Positions 37,188 to 52,139 of a stretch of DNA of 64,000 nt are shown here, in pieces; position 1 is the stretch's first letter; each line of letters begins with the position of its first letter. The notes below the pieces were generated by a model. That model made no database searches, was not told the origin of the DNA, and saw only the letters and a list, made by a program, of their open reading frames with translations. This stretch comes from a virus (taxonomy: Duplodnaviria; Caudoviricetes), in IMG/VR virus record IMGVR_UViG_3300043447_000710, positions 88,641-152,640 of that record. One strand, given 5' to 3'. Position numbers and translations under genes: made by a program.

Positions 37188-38505
37188 TAAGCTCACACCC
37201 GAATAGAATTCGGGGGCTTTAGCCTCAAAGCGTAGCTACTGGAAAGAGGTCAAGCTGACCTTCTAACCGACAACTAAACCCTGGGCTTTCGGGTTGGATT
37301 ACGGACAACCCCAAGGCGGCGATATTACACGCGGCATTTACATCTGAATCATGCTCGAATCCACAGCTTCCACACTTAAATTTCTTTCCGTGCCGATAGG
37401 ATTTTTTCTTATCGGTATCGGGATGGACATGCCCACATCTAGAGCAACTTTTAGAGGTGTAAGCAGGTGGAACAAATATCACTCGAACGCCAGCAATTAT
37501 CGCTTTGTACTGCACAAAGATTCGCAACTGGTAAAAAGCCCAATTATTGGTTCTGCGTCGCTCGGTTTTAGTTCGAGGTTGTTGATTCAAACTCTCTCGG
37601 ATATTAGTCAAATCCTCAAAGGCAAGTGCGGCGTTAAGCCGTTTGGCTTCTGCTACCAACTTCTTGCTAATATTGTGATTCAACCATTTTTGATACCTAA
37701 CTTCTCTACCTTGGAGCCTTCCCATCAAGCGACAAGCCGAACGGGTGCGTTTGCGTTGAAGATTAGATCTAGTTTTGGAATACTTGTCGCGAAGGGATTG
37801 AATTTCTTTCCCGCTCCAAGCTTTCCCAGTACTGGTAGTTGCTATATCGGTTCTGCCAAGATCTACCCCAATTACCTTCGGAGTTTTACCCGTAGGGGGA
37901 GAGTCGATCTCGACAACAATATTGACATAATAATCCCCCTGTCTGCTCTTGTTCAGAGTTGCACTCGTTGGAGTTTGACCGCGCAACAATGCCAACTGGT
38001 AGCCCCCAATTTTAAGCGGCAAGTTAACTCGCCCGCTCATCAAAGTAACCCCAACTATTTGCTTGGATTCGTCGTATTTAAAAGTTCGAGCATCCAAACT
38101 AATCGAGGTCGGTCGAAACTGGTGGACTTGCTTAACAGCCCTAGCGTTGCCGACCACTCTTCTGAGTGCTTGACAGACATGGTTAGCCTTCAATCCCGTA
38201 GCTGCTCTAACTGGGTGGTAAGTCAGGTGATGCAACTTAGTGACATTCCAGCATTTTGCATCCTTAGCTACGCTCAAAATCTGATTGCAAGCATTAGCAA
38301 ACGCCTCAAGTGTACGGTCAATTTCTCGCCGCAACTCTTGATGGACTATAAGCTTGCACTTTACAGATAGTGATTGAGTCATGAATCTATTATAACTCAT
38401 CCATCCTAGATTTTGCCAAGACCTTGTAGGCGGTTAAAACCGCTTGGGTCGTCGTTCCTCCGCGCGATAAATCGACGCGGTTTCCCAACTTCCCACTACA
38501 TTCTA
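37187..38505 (-). mobile_element. IS200/IS605-family element with tnpB only (IS1341-like)
   Basis: Left-end hairpin follows the target TTCAT and is homologous to the left end at 52092. Right-end hairpin ends in TTAC. Removing the element restores TTT-TAA-TGAAGGAGG. Confidence 0.8.
37225..38382 (-). CDS. tnpB: TnpB RNA-guided nuclease with intact D-E-D triad
   Basis: GVDLG, AFEDL, YTSKSCSRCG, CGSCG, DSDVNAACNI. Confidence 0.95.
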   Translation of the reverse strand: MTQSLSVKCKLIVHQELRREIDRTLEAFANACNQILSVAKDAKCWNVTKLHHLTYHPVRAATGLKANHVCQALRRVVGNARAVKQVHQFRPTSISLDARTFKYDESKQIVGVTLMSGRVNLPLKIGGYQLALLRGQTPTSATLNKSRQGDYYVNIVVEIDSPPTGKTPKVIGVDLGRTDIATTSTGKAWSGKEIQSLRDKYSKTRSNLQRKRTRSACRLMGRLQGREVRYQKWLNHNISKKLVAEAKRLNAALAFEDLTNIRESLNQQPRTKTERRRTNNWAFYQLRIFVQYKAIIAGVRVIFVPPAYTSKSCSRCGHVHPDTDKKKSYRHGKKFKCGSCGFEHDSDVNAACNIAALGLSVIQPESPGFSCRLEGQLDLFPVATL

Positions 38506-38526
38506 ATGAAGGAGGATAGAAATATT

Positions 38527-40827: not shown

Positions 40828-41469
40828 CTAATCACTACTGTTACGTACGAGCTTTATATAACCCGTACTTTTCGAATAGTTAGCTGCTAAAGTAGCAATT
40901 AAACTTTTAGCGGATTCTGGATACACCGCGCCCTTTGATGTATTGTTAGGCTTGCGTTTAAACTGACTTCTATAGCTAGCTGCAACGGTTTTACCAAAGC
41001 CTTTTAGAATCCCAGGGCTGCTACACTCATAGCCTAGATTCTGCAACCATTCTAGCAATGACAACTCTATGTCTGAACTAATTACTAGTTTAGTTGTTGC
41101 GTTCGAGTCATTAAGTTCGGCTTGTCTTCCTTTAATAGCATTATAAATTAACTCCTGCAAGTAATTTTCACGCTCTGGATCGAGCTTTAACGCTTTGACC
41201 CGTTCGTAAGCTTCTATTACTTTTAGTACGTGGTCTAAAGAAGTTTTAGGTGCTAGGGGCGCCAACTTAGTTACTGGTGTAGCCGTTAAAGGTATGTCTG
41301 TGTTATCTATACTTTGAGATATAAACTTGTGAATTAGATTTACTGGCTCGATTGAAGTTTCCCGAGCTTCTCGTCTTACTTCCAATGCACAGTTGTAACA
41401 AAGCTCTGAATCTTTAGCGAACGCAGCTTCGTCTTTATAGAACTGACATTTGCAACATCTTTGTTTCAT
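40828..41469 (-). CDS. Zn-finger DNA-binding protein
   Basis: Likely start MKQRCCKC; CxxC...CxxC. Confidence 0.55.
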   Translation of the reverse strand: MKQRCCKCQFYKDEAAFAKDSELCYNCALEVRREARETSIEPVNLIHKFISQSIDNTDIPLTATPVTKLAPLAPKTSLDHVLKVIEAYERVKALKLDPERENYLQELIYNAIKGRQAELNDSNATTKLVISSDIELSLLEWLQNLGYECSSPGILKGFGKTVAASYRSQFKRKPNNTSKGAVYPESAKSLIATLAANYSKSTGYIKLVRNSSD

Positions 41470-41489
41470 GGTTTTGTTAACATCAATTA

Positions 41490-41814
41490 TTACTTGCTCC
41501 AATAGGGCGCAATCGTAGGCGCACCAACGCCGCATTGCAAAACGCCGCCGATATAATCGGTGCCGGCCTGTGCCATAGTGGCTTTTAATAATTCAGCAAT
41601 TTCCAAAGTCTCGCTAGGAATTTCCCAGTAAGGCTTAACTATCGTTCCGTTTTCTACTTTTGACTTTGCTAGATCTAAAGTCAGTAACCCTGGTAGTTCA
41701 AAAAGAACTTCGTCATGTATTTGGCCGATAATAGAAACGTCGGGAAACTCTTTCTTAATTAATTGTTGGCATTTGATTAAAGCAAGCTTACACATTTCTG
41801 CGCCGGAACCTTGG
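41490..41814 (-). CDS. polA: DNA polymerase A, C-terminal subunit, exon 2
   Basis: QGSGAEMCKLA and motif C QIHDEVL. Confidence 0.92.
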
Positions 41815-42076
41815 CAAGATTGTTATCCGTAAAGCTTTTTATCTCTACGTTCTCTAACTCACGCTAGAGATCAGATCATATCATCACCTATTAAAGGTGT
41901 CGGGATTTCGTGTCGAGATTATTGTTGGTACTCACTCGTTGATCGTTCGACCTTCCTAGCTAACTAAGACCTGCTAGGCTTGGTACGGGATTGACTTACA
42001 AACATATTAATATTATAAGTGGTTCCCCGTTTAACCCGATTATTCGATAGACCTTACGGTCTAAAGCCACCCGTCG
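41815..42076 (-). ncRNA. Group I self-splicing intron (262 nt, no homing endonuclease)
   Basis: 5' exon ends in U, paired to G in P1 (GCCAU/GUGGC). Intron ends in G. P7 GAUCA/UGAUC; GNRA loops on P2 and P9. Splicing restores NFAIQGSGAEM. Confidence 0.93.
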
Positions 42077-42687
42077 ATGGCAAAGTTCGCGCCCATAATA
42101 CCCGGCGATTCTTTTTCTCCCTTTGAATTTAATTCGTCGCAAAACCGTTGGCGGCCACTGTAATCTAAACGTGCCCAACCTCTAGCTTCTGTCTGTTCTT
42201 TTATCTCTTGCGCCCAGCGATGGAACTGAGGGTAGAAAGCCTTATGTTGCTTGATCCAGTTCTTTGTTTCCTCTTCTTTAACATAGGTTTGCTGAGACAG
42301 GGAAGCCGCAGTAATAAAATAGATGATCCCAAAGTTTATAATTTTAGCGTAGTCTCTTGCAGATTTAGTCTTACCTATTCGTTTAGGATCTTTAGCAACT
42401 TCAACCCAATCTTCTTTGGGCAAAACTTTGCCGTTCTCAATAAATGCATTTGGAAACACTGCCTTAGCTGTTTGCGTGTGCATGTCGGCGTCAGGGTTGC
42501 TAACTTCATTTCCATTAGTATGAATTATCTTTTCAGGTTGTCTGAATACATCTAACATTACTGGGTCTTCAGACATTACTGCAGCCAATAAGAGTTCTTG
42601 GCTCGAAAAATCTAAACTTAAAATACATCTGCCTTTAGGAGCCCAAAAGCAGGTTCTTGCGCCTACGGACATTTTGAAATTTGTCAT
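42077..42687 (-). CDS. polA: DNA polymerase A, C-terminal subunit, exon 1
   Basis: R.CF.AP.G, motif A LDFSSQEL, DMH..TA, motif B R..AK.INFGIIY. Confidence 0.93.
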
Positions 42688-43093
42688 GTTTACAATTCTC
42701 TACGTTTGATTTTTGCGGCCAAATTATTAAGTAGATATTTGTCGCTACTCCTTTAGTCTTAATGTGTTTGAACTGGAGTTGAAAAAGTTCGCCCTTTTCC
42801 AGCTTACGACTATGTACTTCAGTTTGGAGCTGGTAGCATTTAGCTCCGGCGTTTCTTTGTAAATTTAGCAAGAAGTCCAGATAGCTACCAGCGTGAAACT
42901 TTGGTTCTAGTTGTAACTCTTCGATATATCGGGCATCGTTTTTCTTAAGTTTGTCTAACTCCAACCGCTTCAGATATACATAGTGGTGGTAATTAGCAGA
43001 CAGTTCCTTAGAACCTTTATCTATCCTAAGTGATGTCTGTTGCTTGAGTCTTTTGTGTTTGGTTGACTTTACAAGCAGCGTAGTCTTTGACAA
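42635..43093 (-). CDS. Hypothetical protein between the polA halves
   Basis: Basic 152-aa ORF overlapping both neighbours. Confidence 0.5.
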   Translation of the reverse strand: MSKTTLLVKSTKHKRLKQQTSLRIDKGSKELSANYHHYVYLKRLELDKLKKNDARYIEELQLEPKFHAGSYLDFLLNLQRNAGAKCYQLQTEVHSRKLEKGELFQLQFKHIKTKGVATNIYLIIWPQKSNVENCKHDKFQNVRRRKNLLLGS

Positions 43094-43292
43094 AGCGCAC
43101 TCCTTTTTTAGTAATTCTGTACAAGGGTTTACTAGTTACGTAACCTTTTCTCATAGCTATAGCGTAAACGTCGCGCCAACATGGAGGTATATTTGACAGC
43201 CACGTTTTATTCCAACTAGTAAGCCAGTTATAAACTAAATCGTTGTTTGGGTCAAAGCCTATCATAAAAACCTCGGAATGATTGGAAACCAA
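43026..43292 (-). CDS. Hypothetical protein, possibly winged-helix
   Basis: KGYV...YRITKKG wing-like motif. Confidence 0.5.
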   Translation of the reverse strand: MVSNHSEVFMIGFDPNNDLVYNWLTSWNKTWLSNIPPCWRDVYAIAMRKGYVTSKPLYRITKKGVRFVKDYAACKVNQTQKTQATDIT

Positions 43293-43324
43293 GAACGACT
43301 CCTAGTTTTAGCTAGTAGGATGTT

Positions 43325-43555
43325 TTAATCTTTCTCGGCACGAAGGAGAAAAGTTATACCTTGTGGGCAGTAGCAGCCTATACGCAAGTCTAGTTCTACA
43401 TCTTGTAGCTCTAAACTTAAGTCTACCTCAGGGTTGGTAATCATAAATCTAACTGAAGATTTACTAGCGTGAGAAGCAATATTGTTTCCGTCGCAGCCGA
43501 TCTCAGTTTTGTACTTCTGAAGTAGATCGATCAATTCTGTTACTGTAAGTTCCAT
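43325..43555 (-). CDS. Hypothetical protein
   Basis: LTVTELIDLLQKY N-terminus, common in small phage proteins. Confidence 0.6.
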   Translation of the reverse strand: MELTVTELIDLLQKYKTEIGCDGNNIASHASKSSVRFMITNPEVDLSLELQDVELDLRIGCYCPQGITFLLRAEKD

Positions 43556-43630
43556 GCTTATAAATTAGTGCGGTTTTCAGGCGCACCTGTTAATGTTAAT
43601 ATTCTTTATCAAATTGATGGTACCCCATGT

Positions 43631-44929
43631 CTACGCCTCCAATCCGCTTGCGGATTGATTAGCTAAGACAGGGGATTCATGCACAGTCCATAGGCGAACT
43701 CGCAAAGGTGTCATCAAAGCACCACTACCAACTCCCCGAAGGCATAGCCCCAAGGTTGTCGCTACTTTCCTAATTATGTTTGCCGCGCCGTTGCAATCAG
43801 CATTGATATATTGATTGTTGGCAGTACGATACAATCCTCGTTTTACTCGCTTGCCGCTTTGTTGCCACCCATCAGGTTTCGCACCGATAGTAGGTAGCAC
43901 ATCAAGATCGACAAACGATGCTTTAGAGGTATATGATTCCTCAGTTTCGACGAACTTAATTCCGTATGTCTCCGCTAGTTGAGCAATGCGATCTTTAAGT
44001 CTACCTGTAGGGATTTGGACGAACTTTTGATTGGTCTTGGCTCCCATGTTGGCACCATCTTTTTGACCCTTGTTCCAACCAAATACAATCGTTCCAATTT
44101 GATTGTCGATGCAATGATTAATTACCAGTCTAGCCGCTTTATTGACAGCATCTCTAACTTGTCTATTGCGCTTCTCAGTGATAACAGCTAACTTTTTAGA
44201 CCAAAAGCCTTGTGACTTATCTTCCTTGATGCTGGCAACTTGTTTGTTATAGAACTGATTGAGTGATTTAAGATGACGACCATCAACAATAAAGCTACTA
44301 CCTATATTATTAACGCAAGTTAACCAGTTGTTGATACCATGATCTATCCCTAGTACTCGACTAGAATCTACATCTACTCGATCTGTTTCAACCTTATAGA
44401 CTAGCTCCAAATAAAAACAACCATTGCGAGGTAGAATACGATACTCTTTGATAGATTTGTAGTCTAAATTCGATGGCATAGGCATATAAAAAGCATCAAT
44501 CCCAAACCAAGCTTTAACTTTGCTCCCCAACGGGAAACGCAACCCTTCAGCCTTGAGTTTGACTGCTTGACCTGGAAATGTTATCAAAGCTAGCCCACCC
44601 TGACGATAGCTAGGTAGCTTAGGTTTTTGAATTACAGTTCCTTCTTTAATACCTTTCAATAGTCCGATAAACGACCTAAAAGACTCAGCAATAGTGGTTA
44701 AGCACTGCTGGGCAACTTGAGAATGCAATGCCTTAAAATGTGGATTAACAGCTAATTCTCGGTGAAGATCGTACTTAGTTGGTATCCGACCAGTTTTAAA
44801 GTACAACTGTCTGGAATAATATGTGCCGCAGTTCCCTAATTTAACAGACTCGCTACACACGAATTCCAGAATTGCTTTAAGGCTGGAGTCTGGATTAATT
44901 AATATTTGCTGGCATCCATAATTAGACAT
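43631..44929 (-). CDS. tnpB: TnpB (rearranged RuvC type, no zinc finger)
   Basis: Likely start MSNYGCQQ; GIDHG, IVFGWN, EESYTSK, NADCNGAANI. Confidence 0.93.
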   Translation of the reverse strand: MSNYGCQQILINPDSSLKAILEFVCSESVKLGNCGTYYSRQLYFKTGRIPTKYDLHRELAVNPHFKALHSQVAQQCLTTIAESFRSFIGLLKGIKEGTVIQKPKLPSYRQGGLALITFPGQAVKLKAEGLRFPLGSKVKAWFGIDAFYMPMPSNLDYKSIKEYRILPRNGCFYLELVYKVETDRVDVDSSRVLGIDHGINNWLTCVNNIGSSFIVDGRHLKSLNQFYNKQVASIKEDKSQGFWSKKLAVITEKRNRQVRDAVNKAARLVINHCIDNQIGTIVFGWNKGQKDGANMGAKTNQKFVQIPTGRLKDRIAQLAETYGIKFVETEESYTSKASFVDLDVLPTIGAKPDGWQQSGKRVKRGLYRTANNQYINADCNGAANIIRKVATTLGLCLRGVGSGALMTPLRVRLWTVHESPVLANQSASGLEA

Positions 44930-45119
44930 TCGACACTTCTCCCCAGACTCTAACGGGTTCGCCATAAACATACACAACACCTGCGTTGCGCTTCTTTACA
45001 GTACCGCCACCACGATTTTTCAACCAACACTCAGCTTCCTCTAAAGTCCAAAAGTATGCTGCTCTGTGGTCTGGATGTTTATTGTTATCTTGGGCAAAAA
45101 ATGATTTCTTTCTAGACAC
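44922..45119 (-). CDS. 65-aa accessory ORF inside the IS
   Basis: 8-nt overlaps with both the tnpA stop and the tnpB start. Confidence 0.6.
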   Translation of the reverse strand: MSRKKSFFAQDNNKHPDHRAAYFWTLEEAECWLKNRGGGTVKKRNAGVVYVYGEPVRVWGEVSNV

Positions 45120-45507
45120 TTTTCTGATCCTGAATATACTTTTTAATAGTAGCTAATGGTGCGCCTCCAACGGTACTAACAAAATATGAATTTGTCCACA
45201 ATGTAGGGAGACGACTCTTTAGCCAAGGAAACTCTTGTCTAAGCAATCTTGAGGAACGACCTTTCATGTACCTAATTAGCTTGTCAATCCCAAATTGTGG
45301 ATCGCAATCAACCAGGAGATGTACGTGGTCAGGCATTACTTCAAGTTCGATTATTTCAGCTCCAAACTCATCACCAACAGATATGATAATTTCTTTGAGG
45401 CGAACATCTACGTTGTGAATCAATACCTTTCGTCGATACTTAGGGCACCAAATAACGTGGTATTTGCAAGAGTAGACAATATTATTATTTGACTTGAATT
45501 TACTCAT
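45112..45507 (-). CDS. tnpA: Y1 HUH transposase TnpA
   Basis: YHVIWCPKYRR, PDHVHL, KGRSSR, LWTNSYF, KKYI. Confidence 0.97.
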   Translation of the reverse strand: MSKFKSNNNIVYSCKYHVIWCPKYRRKVLIHNVDVRLKEIIISVGDEFGAEIIELEVMPDHVHLLVDCDPQFGIDKLIRYMKGRSSRLLRQEFPWLKSRLPTLWTNSYFVSTVGGAPLATIKKYIQDQKSV

Positions 45508-45593
45508 GCTACTATTATACAGCTCTGAGCTAAATAACAAAGCAGTAGATAGATACGAATCTCTTATATACTATTTATGAGCGCATACTGGGG

Positions 45594-45992
45594 CTAAAGC
45601 CCTATAATCGCTTCTAGGCGGCTAAAGCCGCAGCCGCGTTCATCCCCAGCCATAAATGGACGGGGCTTTCCGCTCGTTTTCCGGTAAGCGTATTCATAGT
45701 TGTTGCTTAGCTTAAAACCTTCGGCGCTCGCCCAGAATTTAAGCCGCTCTAAAAGCCATTTATATTGGCGTTCGCTTATAGGCAACGGCAAAATTAACGG
45801 ACATTTAGAAGGCTTGTCGTAACACTTTTTAGAATCTGCATAGATAGTATATTCCGTTATACAACCTTCAACTCCTTTACCTTTAAGAAGATACTGTACG
45901 CAAGAATCTTCTAGAAGAGTTACTTCGTAACCTTCAAAACGTAAGCGGCTGACTAAACTAAACAGTTTTCGATCTTGGTTTGTTAGCTTCAT
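45594..45992 (-). CDS. Hypothetical protein whose C-terminus is replaced by IS left-end sequence
   Basis: Native sequence runs to YEYAY (45684); the original FDKEY* lies at 43613-43596. Confidence 0.7.
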   Translation of the reverse strand: MKLTNQDRKLFSLVSRLRFEGYEVTLLEDSCVQYLLKGKGVEGCITEYTIYADSKKCYDKPSKCPLILPLPISERQYKWLLERLKFWASAEGFKLSNNYEYAYRKTSGKPRPFMAGDERGCGFSRLEAIIGL

Positions 45993-46332
45993 AAAGAGTT
46001 GCTAGACCAGAATCTAGCATTAGGTCGGAGACGTTGGCCGTATTCAGAAAGACTTCGGCTATAGATCGGCCGTAAATGTCTAAGGCTAACGAACGGACGA
46101 AGACCTGAGCGCCCGCGCCTAATAGTTTGCTTAGGTATTGTTTGGCTGCCACAGCTTTCTCTTTGTCGTTCGTATCGCTAGAGTTAAGTTCGGCGCAGTT
46201 AATTCTCGCTAGCCGCGCCCGAACTTTTTTTCTAATCTTAAAGCCAAGGTCTACGTCTAAGTCAATAGTATCACCATCGATTACTTTAAGTACTGTAGCT
46301 TCAAATTCAAACTTTTGTTTCAGATCCGTCAT
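45958..46332 (-). CDS. Thermonuclease (SNase-like)
   Basis: VIDGDTI, RLARINCAE, DIYGRSIA. Confidence 0.93.
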   Translation of the reverse strand: MTDLKQKFEFEATVLKVIDGDTIDLDVDLGFKIRKKVRARLARINCAELNSSDTNDKEKAVAAKQYLSKLLGAGAQVFVRSLALDIYGRSIAEVFLNTANVSDLMLDSGLATLYEANKPRSKTV

Positions 46333-47740
46333 TGTCTGGTTCGGGTAATTTTACGTTGACTAAAGAATAAATAACTTCAGCAGGAAGTTCGATCGGTAAC
46401 TCTAGGCGCGCGGAAACTTGTTGGATATTAGGACTGTTTACAGAAAATCTTCCTGTAGCAGCTCTTAGAGGTTGATAGTTAGGATGTATTCGACCAGACT
46501 CTGGATTTACAAAGTCAGACAGAATCATACCTTGCTGTTTGAGTAATTTTTTGTACCTAACTATCTCACCACAGACTTCAATGCCTAAAGAAATAAGTTC
46601 GGCGCTTAAGTCCTCTAACTGTCTGTAAACGTCTAGTTCTGTGTCGAGTATCTCAGTGTCTGAAGAAGTCTCATCATCTTCTTGTTTCGAGCCTAATGCA
46701 TTTAACAAGTTAACTAAACGTTCGAATAAAGCGTTTTGAGCTTTCGGTAAGGCAATGCCGCATTTACTTTCGATGGTGGAGACTAAAGCTTTAGGGTTAT
46801 TTAGTAGCTTAAGAGAGGTAGGGTCTGGTACTAAATCTCCCCATAAACCTTGCGTAGTTAGAGGTAAATCTAACATCTGACAAAGTTTTACACCGGACTT
46901 TAGCAACTCATTATCGACGCTGGCTGCAAAAGCTTTACCAATACGGTCGTCGTAAGGAAGTCCGGCTATTTCCATGCTTGCAACAATTGGAGTTAGCGAT
47001 GATTCCAGACTTACTGCTGGTGCCATGCCAAGCCCGCAACCGTTAGCGTTAGACCCAGAACTAATTAAAGGAGTATTTGGTAAAGGCATATCTAACATAT
47101 ACCTAAAAATATCATGTAAGGAAAATAAATGTTTGACATCATCAGCCGCATAACTTAACTTGACGAACCAGTTAGGATTATCTAACCGGCGGCTGGGCGG
47201 GTCTGAATACCACTCACCAATCTGCGTGGTACCTTTACCTTTAAGTTCTACTCCCAGCCAATCTCTACAGCAAGAACCTAGATCCATGCCTCTAGTCTGC
47301 CAAAGCTTACTTCCAGTAGCATTGGCGTACAAATTAGCTAACGTATAAGTGCAAGCAACGTTTTCAAACTCTCCTAGTAATGAAGACAGCATGGCTAGGT
47401 CGAACTTGGCATTGTGAGCGATTAGGTATCGCGCTCTTTTTAATAGAGCTGCCAACTTTTTAAAGTCACAACCTAATGCTTTGAGACATATAACGTCAAA
47501 TACGTAAGTAGTAGCTTTGACATTTGGGTCTAAAGCGACGCTTAATAGCGAAACGTCTCCTGTGTGAGGATTGGTACGTAATTTGGCGGAAGCATAATCA
47601 AAAGTTCGATACTTATCTTTTGTGTAGGTTTCAGTATCTATAGCTAATCTGTCTGTGTAGTCTGTTAGTAGATCTAAGTGCAAATCATAATCTTCGCTAC
47701 TGTTTATATAGATAAAATCTGGCGTTAAGTTTGCTTCCAT
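46307..47740 (-). CDS. polA: DNA polymerase A, N-terminal subunit (3'-5' exonuclease plus thumb)
   Basis: ExoI AIDTET, ExoII HNAKFD, ExoIII YAADDV, GRIHP, TGRFS..SPNIQQ. Stops before motif A. Confidence 0.93.
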   Translation of the reverse strand: MEANLTPDFIYINSSEDYDLHLDLLTDYTDRLAIDTETYTKDKYRTFDYASAKLRTNPHTGDVSLLSVALDPNVKATTYVFDVICLKALGCDFKKLAALLKRARYLIAHNAKFDLAMLSSLLGEFENVACTYTLANLYANATGSKLWQTRGMDLGSCCRDWLGVELKGKGTTQIGEWYSDPPSRRLDNPNWFVKLSYAADDVKHLFSLHDIFRYMLDMPLPNTPLISSGSNANGCGLGMAPAVSLESSLTPIVASMEIAGLPYDDRIGKAFAASVDNELLKSGVKLCQMLDLPLTTQGLWGDLVPDPTSLKLLNNPKALVSTIESKCGIALPKAQNALFERLVNLLNALGSKQEDDETSSDTEILDTELDVYRQLEDLSAELISLGIEVCGEIVRYKKLLKQQGMILSDFVNPESGRIHPNYQPLRAATGRFSVNSPNIQQVSARLELPIELPAEVIYSLVNVKLPEPDNDGSETKV

Positions 47741-50259: not shown

Positions 50260-51513
50260 CTAAGCCCACAAAGGGACTCTCAAAGGCATTGACAATGTGC
50301 CTCTACTGATTCCGCTTAGATCTAATCCAAGCATCATCGCTACTTTTCGTCCGATATTCGCCGCACCTTGGGCATCGGCATTAATCAACCATCCTTGAGC
50401 AGTACGATATAGTCCTCGCTTTACTCGTTTGCCGCTTGGTCGCCACCCTTCAGGTTTTTCGCTGAATTTAGGTAGCACATCAAGATCGACAAATGATGCT
50501 TTGGATGTATAGGATTCCTCTGTTTCGACAAATTTAATGCCGTATTGTTCGCATAGTTGAGCAATACGCTCTTTTAATTTACCAGTTGGAATCTGGACAA
50601 ACTTTTGATTGGTCTTCTTGCCCATATTGGCGGAATCTTTTTGACCCTTGTTCCAACCAAAAATAATTGTACCAATCTTGTTTTGTAGGCAATGATTGAC
50701 AACTTTTCTTGCAGCTTTATTAACAGCATCTCGCATCGTTCGATTTCGATTCTCTGTTAGTTGCTCTAGTCGCTTAGACCAATACCCGTTGTCTTTCCTC
50801 TCCATTAGGAAAGCAACACGTTTGTTATAGCCTTGATTGATAGATTTGAGTTGCTTTCCATCAATAATAAAACTAGTGCCAATATTGCTAACACAAGTCA
50901 ACCAATTATCCACCCCGTGGTCGATAAACAAGGCGTACTCTGAATTAACATCAGCCTGTTTGATTTCTGTTTTATAAACCAGCTCCAAATAGAAGCAACC
51001 ATTTCTCGGTAAAATTCGGTACTCTCGAATTGATTTATAATCAATATTTGATGGCATTGGTAGATTAAATGAATCCAAGCCAAACCATGCTTTGACTTTA
51101 TTGCCAAGTGGAAACCTAAGCATACCGTCTTTAAGCTTTACCGAGCGACCTGTAAACGTCACTAATGCCATTCCACCTTGCCGATATCCAGGTAGTTTAG
51201 GTCTTTGCTCTACAGTTCCATTTTTAATACCTTTTAACAATCCTAGATAAGACTTAAAAGATTCAGCGACACCAGTTAGAATCTGCTGTGCAGTATCTGA
51301 ATAGAATGCTTTGTAGTGCATATTTTGGTTGTCAGTACCCAACACCTTGTGTAACTCTGCACGATTAGGAATTTTGCCAGTCTTAAAAAAGATTTGGCGC
51401 GAGTAGTAAACCCCACAGTTGATTAACTTAGAAGCTTCACTGCATAGAAACTCCAAGATTCCTCTAAGATCGTGGTCTGGACTGATTAGATTTTGTTGAC
51501 AGCCATACCCCAC
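50260..51513 (-). CDS. tnpB: TnpB (rearranged RuvC type), close paralogue of the copy at 43631
   Basis: Likely GTG start after GGAG; FIDHG, IIFGWN, EESYTSK, NADAQGAANI. Confidence 0.93.
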   Translation of the reverse strand: MGYGCQQNLISPDHDLRGILEFLCSEASKLINCGVYYSRQIFFKTGKIPNRAELHKVLGTDNQNMHYKAFYSDTAQQILTGVAESFKSYLGLLKGIKNGTVEQRPKLPGYRQGGMALVTFTGRSVKLKDGMLRFPLGNKVKAWFGLDSFNLPMPSNIDYKSIREYRILPRNGCFYLELVYKTEIKQADVNSEYALFIDHGVDNWLTCVSNIGTSFIIDGKQLKSINQGYNKRVAFLMERKDNGYWSKRLEQLTENRNRTMRDAVNKAARKVVNHCLQNKIGTIIFGWNKGQKDSANMGKKTNQKFVQIPTGKLKERIAQLCEQYGIKFVETEESYTSKASFVDLDVLPKFSEKPEGWRPSGKRVKRGLYRTAQGWLINADAQGAANIGRKVAMMLGLDLSGISRGTLSMPLRVPLWA

Positions 51514-51594
51514 AGTTAATTCTCCATGTCGATAGCTTTGTTGATTTCTCTGATACAATAACATATAAATGTAGATTAATGCAAGCAATCAACA

Positions 51595-51999
51595 ATGAGA
51601 AGCCCGTCTTATGAATATCGGCATTACAACCATTCGGTGGGGCTAGCAGTTGTCCATCTGATTTGGATACCCAAGCGACGACGGAAAGTTTTGGTTGGAG
51701 ATGTCAAGACTCGACTGATTCAAATATTCCAAGAATTGGCAATTGAGAAAGAGTGGGCAATTAGAGCCTTGGAAGTGGCACCAGACCACATTCATTTGTT
51801 TGTTGAAGTTCATCCAACCGATGCAATTAACCAAGTAGTAAAGGCATTTAAGGGGCGGTCAAGCAACTATCTAAGGAAAGAGTTTGAGCATCTAAAGAAG
51901 ATGCCATCGTTATGGACAAACAGTTATTTCTTTTCGACAGCAGGGAATGTCTCGGCGGACACAATTGAACGGTATATCAACGATCCGCATCATGGGTAG
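51595..51999 (+). CDS. tnpA: Y1 HUH transposase TnpA
   Basis: HLIWIPKRRR, PDHIHL, KGRSS, LWTNSYF, ERYI. Confidence 0.97.
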   Translation: MRSPSYEYRHYNHSVGLAVVHLIWIPKRRRKVLVGDVKTRLIQIFQELAIEKEWAIRALEVAPDHIHLFVEVHPTDAINQVVKAFKGRSSNYLRKEFEHLKKMPSLWTNSYFFSTAGNVSADTIERYINDPHHG

Positions 52000-52092
52000 A
52001 ACTTGGGATTTTGTAGGCGAATAAATTCGCTCGTGTCGTCGTTCCTCCGCGCAATGAATTGACGCGGCTTCCCGACTTCCCGCTCTCCTCTG

Positions 52093-52139
52093 GTGAAGTG
52101 TCAAGACTCTCCGCCCTAGAAGGGCGGAGAGTATGTCAA
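52093..52139 (+). mobile_element. Orphan IS200/IS605 right end
   Basis: TCAAGACTCTCCGCCC-taga-AGGGCGGAGAGTATGTCAA. Confidence 0.7.

What the first reader, a model, noticed from the sequence alone, without database searches (positions are those of the whole stretch)
41490..47740. Family-A DNA polymerase split into two genes 3.6 kb apart, with a nuclease, small ORFs and an IS in the gap and an intron in the second half
Seen in sequence: the 477-aa ORF carries ExoI-III and the thumb and ends ...TGRFSVNSPNIQQVSAR-LELPIEL...KV*. The catalytic half restarts with its own ATG as MTNFKMSVG-ARTCFWAPKG...DFSSQEL. Established: in PolA the motifs TGR.S...PN.Q and R..F.AP.G are only about 10 residues apart. 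Between them here lie a thermonuclease overlapping the N-half stop, an IS-hit ORF, an IS605 element and three small ORFs. Both halves keep their catalytic residues. I see no intein motifs and no intron core at this junction. Inference: this is a true two-subunit PolA. The added tails LELPIEL and FKMSVG alternate hydrophobic residues and may be the two strands of a beta-hairpin split at its tip, forming the dimer interface. The spliced C-half would be 311 aa.
Basis: partly seen in the sequence, partly recalled or inferred. Interest (0 to 1): 0.85.

Follow-up and report, generated by a model that had tools for sequence, protein, structure and literature searches.

The report
Split phage DNA polymerase with cargo gap
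This cyanophage encodes its only DNA polymerase as two separate genes, cut at the tip of a small hairpin; many related phages, including the published Ma-LMM01, share the cut, so it is an inherited multi-piece enzyme whose gap has filled with mobile DNA, not a one-off.

Summary
On the minus strand lie a 477-aa PolA N-half (exonuclease, thumb, TGR..PN.QQ motif), a 3,619-nt gap, and a C-half (motifs A, B, C) with a 262-nt group I intron. The spliced C-half is 311 aa.

The two-subunit reading is supported, but the split is not special to this phage:
- All 11 related split loci I examined break at the same place, including Ma-LMM01 gp180/gp178.
- At least 43 protein clusters at 50% identity look like the separate C-half.
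- The break maps to the Taq 590-594 loop.
- Fused relatives in the same clade carry a strand-helix-loop-strand insertion there. An AlphaFold model of one is confident (pLDDT 93). The window's tails match its two strands, so the cut lies in the loop.
- No intein motifs or ribozyme core were found at the junction, and no other polymerase in the 152.6-kb record.

The gap is an accessory-gene hot spot of 0.1 to 6.8 kb in relatives. Here it holds a nuclease gene and a recent IS200/IS605 insertion (TTAC target, empty site in a 98% relative).

One "small ORF" (ORF88, 43026-43292) is new: a probable winged-helix gene found in the gap of 10 of 11 split loci and near none of three fused genes.

This scan noted the same layout earlier on another Ma-LMM01-like phage (e1-5365776). 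No biochemistry exists.

The parts
46307..47740 (-). polA N-half gene (477 aa): 3'-5' exonuclease motifs I-III, thumb, and the TGR..PN.QQ..R motif. R445 aligns with Taq R587.
   Evidence: ORF. Pfam PF01612 and PF00476. Alignment to Taq 528-590. Invariant D35, E37, Y197, D201 in alignment A2.
46310..46405 (-). N-half tail, residues 446-477: beta-strand LELPIEL, helix PAEVIYSLV, then a disordered end. Proposed docking element.
   Evidence: The tail pattern is conserved across N-half-only homologues. In fused P0034 it corresponds to strand 426-429 plus helix 430-436. In the N-half folded alone it has low pLDDT.
45958..46332 (-). Staphylococcal-nuclease-like gene (124 aa); gap cargo.
   Evidence: Pfam SNase, E 4.6e-9. 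phrog_452 endonuclease, E 4e-24. Found only in the 98% relative L033 among the relatives examined.
45594..45992 (-). ORF132: a 110-aa gene of unknown function whose 3' end was replaced by the IS insertion.
   Evidence: Comparison with L033 13197-13529. No Pfam or PHROG hit.
43614..45683 (-). IS200/IS605 element, 2,070 nt: TnpA 45112-45540, ORF65 44922-45119, TnpB 43631-44980.
   Evidence: Pfam Y1_Tnp E 5e-44; OrfB_IS605 plus Cas12f1-like_TNB. Inserted 3' of TTAC, right end ...TCAA, empty site in L033.
43325..43555 (-). ORF76, a small gap gene of unknown function.
   Evidence: Conserved in L033, and in L034 at 51% identity, E 5e-22.
43026..43292 (-). ORF88: a small, probable winged-helix protein, conserved between the two polA halves across the split clade.
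   Evidence: Homologues lie in the gaps of L033, L034, L035, L037, L038, L039, L040, L043 and L044. Not found within the DNA held around three fused polA genes, about 2-6 kb per side. Only weak winged-helix matches.
42635..43093 (-). ORF152, overlapping ORF88 and the C-half start. Possibly a real gene.
   Evidence: 32% identity over 129 aa to an ORF in the L034 gap, E 1e-6. Not called in L033. No family hit.
42077..42687 (-). polA C-half exon 1. Head MTNFKMSVG (42661-42687) is the proposed partner strand. Also motif A (DFSSQEL) and motif B (R..AK..NFG..Y).
   Evidence: ORF. Pfam DNA_pol_A E 1.5e-25. A10-R11 align with Taq I594-R595. Head conserved in split C-halves.
41815..42076 (-). Group I intron, 262 nt, without an ORF.
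   Evidence: RF00028 at 41.2 bits, E 2e-9, full model. P1 with U-G at the 5' splice site and a terminal G. MFE z-score -3.6. Intron-less alleles exist in relatives.
41490..41814 (-). polA C-half exon 2: QGSGAE..K and motif C (QIHDE).
   Evidence: The spliced product is 311 aa, reading ANFAIQGSGAEM across the junction.

Best explanation
The phage's only DNA polymerase is a family-A enzyme made from two separately translated polypeptides.

- The N-half supplies the proofreading exonuclease, the thumb and the primer-contacting TGR..PN.QQ..R motif.
- The C-half, after self-splicing of a 262-nt group I intron, supplies palm motifs A and C and the fingers. The active site is therefore composite.
- The gene is cut in the loop of a clade-specific strand-helix-loop-strand insertion in the Taq 590-594 loop.
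- I infer that the N-half's C-terminal strand and helix pair with the C-half's N-terminal strand and so hold the halves together without any covalent joining.

The split is old and inherited. The space between the cistrons tolerates insertions and has collected a conserved small winged-helix gene, other small genes, a nuclease gene and, very recently, an IS200/IS605 element.

Shown: gene anatomy, conservation, fused homologues, the intron and the IS insertion. Inferred: physical assembly, polymerase activity and any role of the small gene.
For: 1. Same break point and homologous tails in relatives.
- Ma-LMM01 gp180 ends ...AQQISNVELMVDIE... and gp178 starts MTKIKMNS..; they lie about 100 nt apart.
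- 20 of 22 homologues of the N-half are N-half-only proteins ending in the same strand pattern.
- Dozens of C-half-only clusters begin with an alternating strand followed by (T/N)PR.
- All 11 split loci examined have N then C on one strand.

2. Fused relatives.
- P0034, P0038, P0081, P0090 and P0139 have an insertion at exactly this site.
- AF2 of P0034 (pLDDT 93.4) gives strand 426-429, helix 430-436, loop, strand 450-453, with pLDDT of about 90 or more.
- The N-half alone leaves its tail poorly ordered.

3. Tree. A clade with 99% support holds 43 split and 7 fused rows.

4. Catalytic motifs are intact in both halves.

5. No PolB, Pol III alpha or second PolA is found in the 152.6-kb record.

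6. The intron is supported. The recent IS insertion is supported.
Against: - There are no expression, interaction or activity data for any member of this family.
- I could not co-fold the two chains. The tool also returns no coordinates, so pairing of the two strands is inferred from secondary structure and adjacency only.
- The viral record is about 83% complete, so another polymerase cannot be fully excluded.
- 'Split' status of library proteins in the tree is inferred from length and alignment start, not from genome context.
- The IS element between the halves could disturb co-transcription in this particular isolate.
Confidence: 0.8

Rival explanations
1. The 3.6-kb gap is removed at the RNA level, as a giant or bipartite group I/II intron spliced in cis or trans, giving a single-chain polymerase.
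For: The same gene does carry a genuine group I intron. Relatives carry up to three introns, at motifs A, B and IQG.
Against: - Sensitive Rfam scans of both junction flanks found no ribozyme core.
- The tails are conserved as protein sequence with a start codon across deep divergence.
- The gap is only about 100 nt in Ma-LMM01, too short for an intron.
- Gap content is unrelated between relatives and is packed with genes.
Confidence: 0.03
2. The halves are ligated after translation by a split intein (the 'fractured gene' arrangement of PMC2677866).
For: Inteins do invade this family. P0010 has a mini-intein inside TGR..PN and P0027 has a LAGLIDADG intein after IQG. Fractured genes with a nuclease gene between the halves are known.
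Against: - The tails are only 32 and 9 residues long.
- There is no Cys/Ser/Thr at the would-be junctions. The tail starts with L after R445, and no terminal HN motif precedes A10.
- Pfam found no Hint or intein domain in either half, while it did detect the real inteins in relatives.
Confidence: 0.02
3. The gene is a disrupted, decaying polymerase, and replication relies on a host enzyme or another polymerase.
For: The locus is riddled with mobile DNA: an IS element, an intron and a nuclease gene. The record is only about 83% complete.
Against: - All exonuclease and polymerase motifs are intact.
- Both halves are conserved down to about 25-30% identity in phages with the same split.
- The record contains no other polymerase.
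- The IS lies between cistrons, not within either half.
Confidence: 0.05
4. The halves act separately, the N-half as a stand-alone proofreading or repair exonuclease, and no stable complex forms.
For: Ma-LMM01 gp180 is annotated simply as a 3'-5' exonuclease. T7-like cyanophages of clade B do have a separate exonuclease ORF (PMC12695635).
Against: - Here the cut is not at the exonuclease/polymerase domain boundary. The N-half carries the thumb and the primer-terminus motif, so the C-half alone lacks about a third of the polymerase domain.
- The complementary strand-like tails are conserved.
Confidence: 0.07

Closest known systems
Microcystis phage Ma-LMM01 gp180 / gp179 / gp178 (NC_008562; also MaMV-DC, MaMV-DH01 and others)
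   Same: Same PolA clade and the same break point after PN/AQQ(I/V)S. Same type of tails (..VELMVDIE.. and MTKIKMNS..). Same gene order and strand. Similar replication-gene neighbours: dUTPase and UDG in the annotation; a clamp and clamp loader are reported in PMC3201878.
   Different: - The halves lie about 100 nt apart with one 51-aa ORF, against 3.6 kb here.
- The C-half has no intron.
- gp179 is not detectably homologous to the window's ORF88.
- Identity is only about 25-28%.
- The papers I could search treat it as an ordinary A-family polymerase and do not discuss the split.
Genes-in-pieces phage enzymes: Aeh1 NrdA-a/NrdA-b split by mobE, and T4-related gp43A/gp43B (PolB)
   Same: An essential replication enzyme is encoded as two cistrons cut inside a catalytic domain. 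The polypeptides reassemble without RNA or protein splicing. In NrdA, unique C- and N-terminal tails are essential for activity (PMC3045599). The 43A/43B halves co-purify and are active (PMC2988022).
   Different: - A different enzyme family (PolA).
- The tails here correspond to a pre-existing hairpin insertion seen in fused relatives, not to sequence brought in by the inserting element.
- No homing endonuclease lies in this window's gap, although L034 has an RRXRR-HNH gene there.
- The split is spread over a much larger and older clade.
Split PolA of T7-like cyanophage clade B (S-TIP37) and OM43 phages MEP401/402
   Same: A phage family-A polymerase encoded by two ORFs.
   Different: In clade B the exonuclease domain is a separate ORF, so the cut is at a domain boundary. 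Here the cut lies inside the polymerase domain, between thumb/motif 2 and palm motif A.
Group I introns in phage polA (SPO1/SP82 type)
   Same: A self-splicing intron sits in a highly conserved polymerase motif. Relatives carry LAGLIDADG- or HNH-bearing introns at motifs A and B.
   Different: The window's intron is ORF-less (262 nt) and scores below Rfam's gathering cut-off (41.2 against 50 bits).

Membership tests
Family A DNA polymerase (Pol I-like, with 3'-5' exonuclease) | Exonuclease motifs I-III (DxE, N..(F/Y)D, Y...D) | tested here: met
   PF01612 E 1e-9. D35, E37, Y197 and D201 invariant, N110 nearly invariant, in alignment A2.
Family A DNA polymerase (Pol I-like, with 3'-5' exonuclease) | Polymerase motifs A (D.S..E), B (R..AK..NFG..Y) and C (HDE), plus TGR..PN.Q | tested here: met
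   Sequence. PF00476 on all three pieces. Alignments to Taq.
Family A DNA polymerase (Pol I-like, with 3'-5' exonuclease) | Single polypeptide carrying the whole polymerase domain | tested here: not met
   A stop follows residue 477 and a new ATG lies 3,619 nt downstream. The same holds in 11 related loci.
Group I intron | Match to the covariance model with the P1-P9 core | tested here: inconclusive
   RF00028 full-length match at 41.2 bits, E 2e-9, in a 311-nt scan, below the gathering score of 50. It was missed in the 7-kb and 64-kb scans.
Group I intron | U at the end of the 5' exon paired with G in P1, a terminal G, and precise restoration of the reading frame | tested here: met
   GCCAU / GUGGC pairing and a ...UUG 3' end. 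The spliced sequence reads ANFAIQGSGAEM, matching intron-less relatives.
Group I intron | Self-splicing activity | not testable with these tools
   Needs in vitro transcription and splicing, or RT-PCR.
IS200/IS605 | Y1 transposase TnpA plus TnpB | tested here: met
   PF01797 E 5e-44; PF01385 plus PF07282.
IS200/IS605 | Insertion 3' of a TTAC-type target without target duplication, and an empty site in a relative | tested here: met
   ...GCTTAC | IS ...CATCAA | TTTGATAAAG in the window, against the uninterrupted ...GATTAC TTTGATAAAG in L033.
Split intein / fractured gene | N- and C-intein blocks with nucleophilic junction residues | tested here: not met
   No Hint or intein Pfam hit on either half. 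The tails are 32 and 9 aa with no C/S/T at the junctions.
Genes-in-pieces enzyme (NrdA-a/b, gp43A/B type) | Two cistrons from one ancestral catalytic domain, each with its own stop or start and extra tails | tested here: met
Genes-in-pieces enzyme (NrdA-a/b, gp43A/B type) | A homing endonuclease gene at the break | tested here: not met
   The window's gap has an SNase-like gene and an IS but no HNH, GIY-YIG or LAGLIDADG gene. L034 has RRXRR-HNH right after the N-half.
Genes-in-pieces enzyme (NrdA-a/b, gp43A/B type) | The halves reassemble into an active enzyme | not testable with these tools
   Needs co-expression and an activity assay. Only indirect support from conservation and the fused-homologue model.

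The most novel reading that the evidence does not exclude
The split enzyme may really have three parts. The small winged-helix gene sits between the halves in 10 of 11 split loci and was not found in the DNA held around three fused genes. It could encode a third subunit, an assembly factor, or a regulator that became indispensable once the gene was cut at the hairpin tip. The protected space between two essential cistrons would then act as a landing pad for accessory and anti-defence genes: IS elements, nucleases, Acb3, tRNA-repair genes. The tree needs between 3 and 6 changes between split and fused states. That pattern would fit repeated re-fusion by loss of the small gene.
Probability: 0.3. 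Interest if true: 0.65.

Novelty: new variant of a known kind. Interest (0 to 1): 0.5.

Why it matters
Naturally split polymerases show where a catalytic domain can be cut and still work. This family gives dozens of natural examples of one cut site inside the PolA polymerase domain, with matched fused controls. That is useful for understanding polymerase assembly and for designing split polymerases.

It also shows how an ancient gene fission becomes a hot spot for mobile and accessory DNA in large cyanophages.

For annotation, the halves should be named as subunits of one PolA and not as "3'-5' exonuclease" plus "DNA polymerase". The small conserved gene between them deserves a test as a partner.

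Tried and rejected
- Rfam over 64 kb and over 7 kb found nothing. The intron appeared only in a 311-nt scan, so the long-range negatives are filter artefacts. I therefore re-scanned both junction flanks in 421-nt pieces. One gave only a chance hit (rli36, E 2.9) and the other nothing.
- The viral contigs pattern scan with the N-half returned only distant fused PolAs that lack the hairpin.
- The promoter/terminator scan of the locus gave counts equal to shuffled expectation, so it says nothing about transcription across the gap.
- Folding the N-half alone did not order the tail strand. This fits a need for a partner but proves nothing.
- Homology of Ma-LMM01 gp179 to ORF88 looked plausible by eye but failed when gp179 was left out of the profile, so I dropped it.
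- Literature searches found no discussion of the Ma-LMM01-type split.
- A split intein, a giant intron and translational bypass over 3.6 kb were all considered and rejected (see rivals).
- I could not co-fold the two chains, because the fold tool takes one natural chain only.


Full report
**What is there.** The window is the 3' 64 kb of a 152.6-kb IMG/VR virus record, about 83% complete. On the minus strand lie the following features.
- A 477-aa ORF (46307-47740) carries the PolA 3'-5' exonuclease domain and the first part of the polymerase domain.
- A second ORF starts with its own ATG at 42687 and carries the rest of the polymerase domain.
- That second ORF is interrupted at 41815-42076.
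- The two genes are 3,619 nt apart.
- The gap holds an SNase-like gene overlapping the N-half stop, ORF132, an IS200/IS605 element (TnpA, a 65-aa ORF, TnpB), and three small ORFs of 76, 88 and 152 aa.

**The intron.**
- Exon 1 ends ...GCCAU, which pairs with GUGGC six bases into the intervening sequence, giving U-G at the splice site.
- The intervening sequence ends in G, and the join restores ANFAIQGSGAEM.
- Rfam's Intron_gpI model matches it end to end at 41.2 bits, E 2e-9, in a 311-nt scan. That is below the gathering score of 50, and the match was filtered out in the longer scans.
- The fold z-score is -3.6.
- Relatives L035, L037, L038, L039, L040 and Ma-LMM01 read straight through N..IQ(G/S) without an insert.
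- The 60% relative L034 has an intron at the same site.
- I accept it as a group I intron. Splicing itself is untested.

**Where the polymerase is cut.**
- Alignment to Taq polymerase puts N-half PNIQQVSARLEL on Taq 579-590, so R445 corresponds to R587.
- It puts C-half A10-R11 on Taq I594-R595.
- The break therefore lies in the short loop that precedes the strand leading to catalytic D610. It is inside the polymerase domain, not at the exonuclease/polymerase boundary.
- The N-half has 29 residues beyond that point and the C-half has 9 before it.

**The split is inherited and widespread.**
- tblastn against phage genomes hits the Ma-LMM01 group of Microcystis phages. There the homologue is annotated as gp180 "3'-5' exonuclease", then the 51-aa gp179, then gp178 "DNA polymerase".
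- gp180 ends ..AQQISNVELMVDIE.. and gp178 begins MTKIKMNS...DFSSQEL. This is the same cut with the same kind of tails, about 100 nt apart.
- A search of 5.8 billion proteins with the N-half returned 22 hits. Twenty are N-half-only proteins of 355-484 aa, or 610 aa with an intein.
- Most of these end in PN.QQ(V/I)(S/P)AR followed by an alternating strand, such as ARLDLELEF, ARLYVEAEF or ARLEVWVEV. In the closer ones a helix T.(D/E)EL..LVD(I/V) follows.
- An exhaustive search with C-half exon 1 found that 66 of the best 150 cluster representatives start near the C-half head. Some are fragments, and 43 are at least 280 aa.
- Most of those begin with an alternating strand followed by (T/N)PR.
- In all 11 split loci whose DNA I fetched, the N-half precedes the C-half on the same strand. 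These loci are Ma-LMM01, L033-L035, L037-L040, L043 and L044, plus the window itself.

**Fused relatives explain the tails.**
- Five fused proteins in the same clade carry an insertion exactly at the break site. These are P0034, P0038, P0081, P0139 and P0090; P0090 is close to Microcoleus phage My-WqHQDG.
- Each insertion reads strand, variable middle, strand. An example is KVVTL-KDGR-KTSL.
- More distant PolAs have only 4-8 residues there.
- I folded P0034 with a 61-sequence alignment and obtained pLDDT 93.4 and pTM 0.92.
- The model gives strand 426-429 (VSLP), helix 430-436, loop, a short helix, and strand 450-453 (KFSL), directly before QRECF. Confidence over this element is about 90 or more.
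- The whole model matches Klenow-type structures.
- The window's N tail (strand LELPIE, helix PAEVIYSLV) and C head (strand FKMSV) map onto these elements, so the gene is cut in the loop.
- Folded alone, the window's N-half leaves residues 441-477 at mean pLDDT 42-77 with no strand formed, as expected for an element that needs a partner.
I could not inspect contacts or co-fold the two chains, so strand pairing remains an inference.

**Evolution.**
- On a tree of C-half regions, a branch with 99% SH-aLRT support unites 43 split and 7 fused rows.
- The states need 6 changes on the tree, and well-supported branches force at least 3.
- The state has therefore changed several times. The direction of change is not resolved.

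**Rivals.**
- RNA splicing across the gap:
  - No ribozyme core flanks the junction.
  - The tails are conserved as protein.
  - The Ma-LMM01 gap is too short for an intron.
- Split intein:
  - Pfam finds no Hint domain in either half, yet it does detect genuine inteins in relatives P0010 and P0027.
  - The tails are too short and lack nucleophiles at the junctions.
- Decay:
  - All catalytic motifs are intact.
  - The record contains no PolB, Pol III alpha or second PolA.
- Misassembly:
  - An independent NCBI assembly, 98% identical, shares the N-half/SNase and small-ORF/C-half junctions.

**The gap.**
- Comparison with that 98% relative (L033) shows the IS is a recent insertion. Its limits are 43614-45683.
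- It lies immediately 3' of TTAC, its right end is ...TCAA, and the site is empty in L033. The insertion replaced the last 7 codons of a 110-aa gene.
- L033 in turn has a different TnpB element after the SNase gene and an extra 1.2-kb LAGLIDADG intron at motif B.
- Across relatives the gap ranges from about 0.1 kb to 6.8 kb, with unrelated cargo:

| Locus | Gap cargo |
|---|---|
| L038 | thymidylate kinase |
| L034 | RRXRR-HNH, Metallophos, Acb3, BubE, an exonuclease |
| L044 | PNKP and T4-type RNA ligase |
| L039, L043 | small ORFs |

**A conserved small gene.**
- ORF88 (43026-43292) has homologues in the gaps of L033, L034, L035, L037, L038, L039 and L040.
- A profile built from those also finds gap ORFs in two other subclades: L044 at E 4e-7 and L043 at E 2e-5.
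- The profile finds nothing in the DNA held around three fused polA genes, L006, L041 and L042.
- It does not find Ma-LMM01 gp179 when gp179 is left out of the profile.
- The shared motif is KG(Y/I)V..(A/P)PY.LTKKG.R...Y.
- The only database similarities are weak and all to winged-helix proteins:
  - eS10, eS25, PadR and AspA in the PDB, E 0.004-0.5.
  - Pfam HTH_45 and wHTH-PRTase_assc.
  - MarR and HTH_45 by predicted structure, from a low-confidence model.
- I read it as a probable winged-helix protein tied to the split state. Its role is unknown; it could be a subunit, a regulator, or a domesticated remnant of the element that caused the split.

**Comparison with the known.**
- The closest sequence relative with the same layout is Ma-LMM01 gp180/179/178. 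The papers I could search treat it as an ordinary A-family polymerase.
- Mechanistically the closest cases are the genes-in-pieces enzymes of T4-related phages:
  - NrdA-a/NrdA-b, whose tails are essential (PMC3045599).
  - gp43A/43B, which co-purify and are active (PMC2988022).
- Split PolAs are reported in T7-like cyanophage clade B, with the exonuclease as a separate ORF (PMC12695635). They are also reported in OM43 phages (PMC10580990).
- The case here differs in three ways: the cut lies inside the polymerase domain, at a clade-specific hairpin, with a conserved small gene between the halves.
- This scan noted the same three-piece layout earlier in another Ma-LMM01-like phage (e1-5365776).

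**Verdict.**
My confidence in it is about 0.8.
- I rate it as a new variant of a known kind, with interest 0.5.

Noticed in passing
P0010 (relative's N-half; locus L039 800-2632) and P0027 (relative's C-half): Inteins occupy the most conserved motifs of this split PolA in relatives. P0010 has a mini-intein inside TGRFA|C...HN|SSNPN. P0027 has a LAGLIDADG intein right after IQG, within a codon or two of the site that holds the group I intron in the window.
   Followed up: partly
L033 14782-15981; L035 12205-13780; L034 10997-11262 and 11545-11787: Relatives carry further introns in the C-half, so there are three recurrent insertion sites. At motif B (K-I-I-NFG), L033 has a 1.2-kb LAGLIDADG-bearing intron and L034 and L039 have short ones. 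In L035, motif A (DFSS|QEL) holds a 1.6-kb insert with LAGLIDADG and HNH genes.
   Followed up: partly
window 50260-51999 and 37225-38400; repeats at 52013-52098 and 38426-38511: Two more IS200/IS605-type elements lie in stretches absent from the 98% relative L033: one TnpB plus divergent TnpA, and one TnpB alone. About 86-nt repeats beside them resemble one end of L033's own TnpB element. IS activity in this phage lineage looks recent and high.
   Followed up: partly
L034 4077-10651; L044 977-2925: The inter-half gap of relatives carries candidate anti-defence or repair cargo: Acb3, BubE, a metallophosphatase and an Rv2179c-like exonuclease in L034, and PNKP plus T4-type RNA ligase 1 (tRNA repair) in L044.
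   Followed up: no
window 40828-41535 (-): A 235-aa Cys-rich ORF overlaps the last 46 nt of polA exon 2. It has a weak PHROG hit to endonuclease VII (E 0.0026).
   Followed up: no
window 44922-45119 (-): A 65-aa ORF bridges tnpA and tnpB inside the IS element, overlapping both. I did not examine it.
   Followed up: no
L043 4328-5677: In this more distant split locus the called N-half ends at ...TGRLSSSNP*, inside the PN.QQ motif, and about 450 nt of uncalled DNA follow. This may be another intron or a different break point.
   Followed up: no
window 41790-42100: Method note: the group I intron was invisible to Rfam scans of 64 kb and 7 kb and appeared only when 311 nt were scanned. A negative Rfam result on a long stretch should not be read as absence of an intron.
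   Followed up: yes
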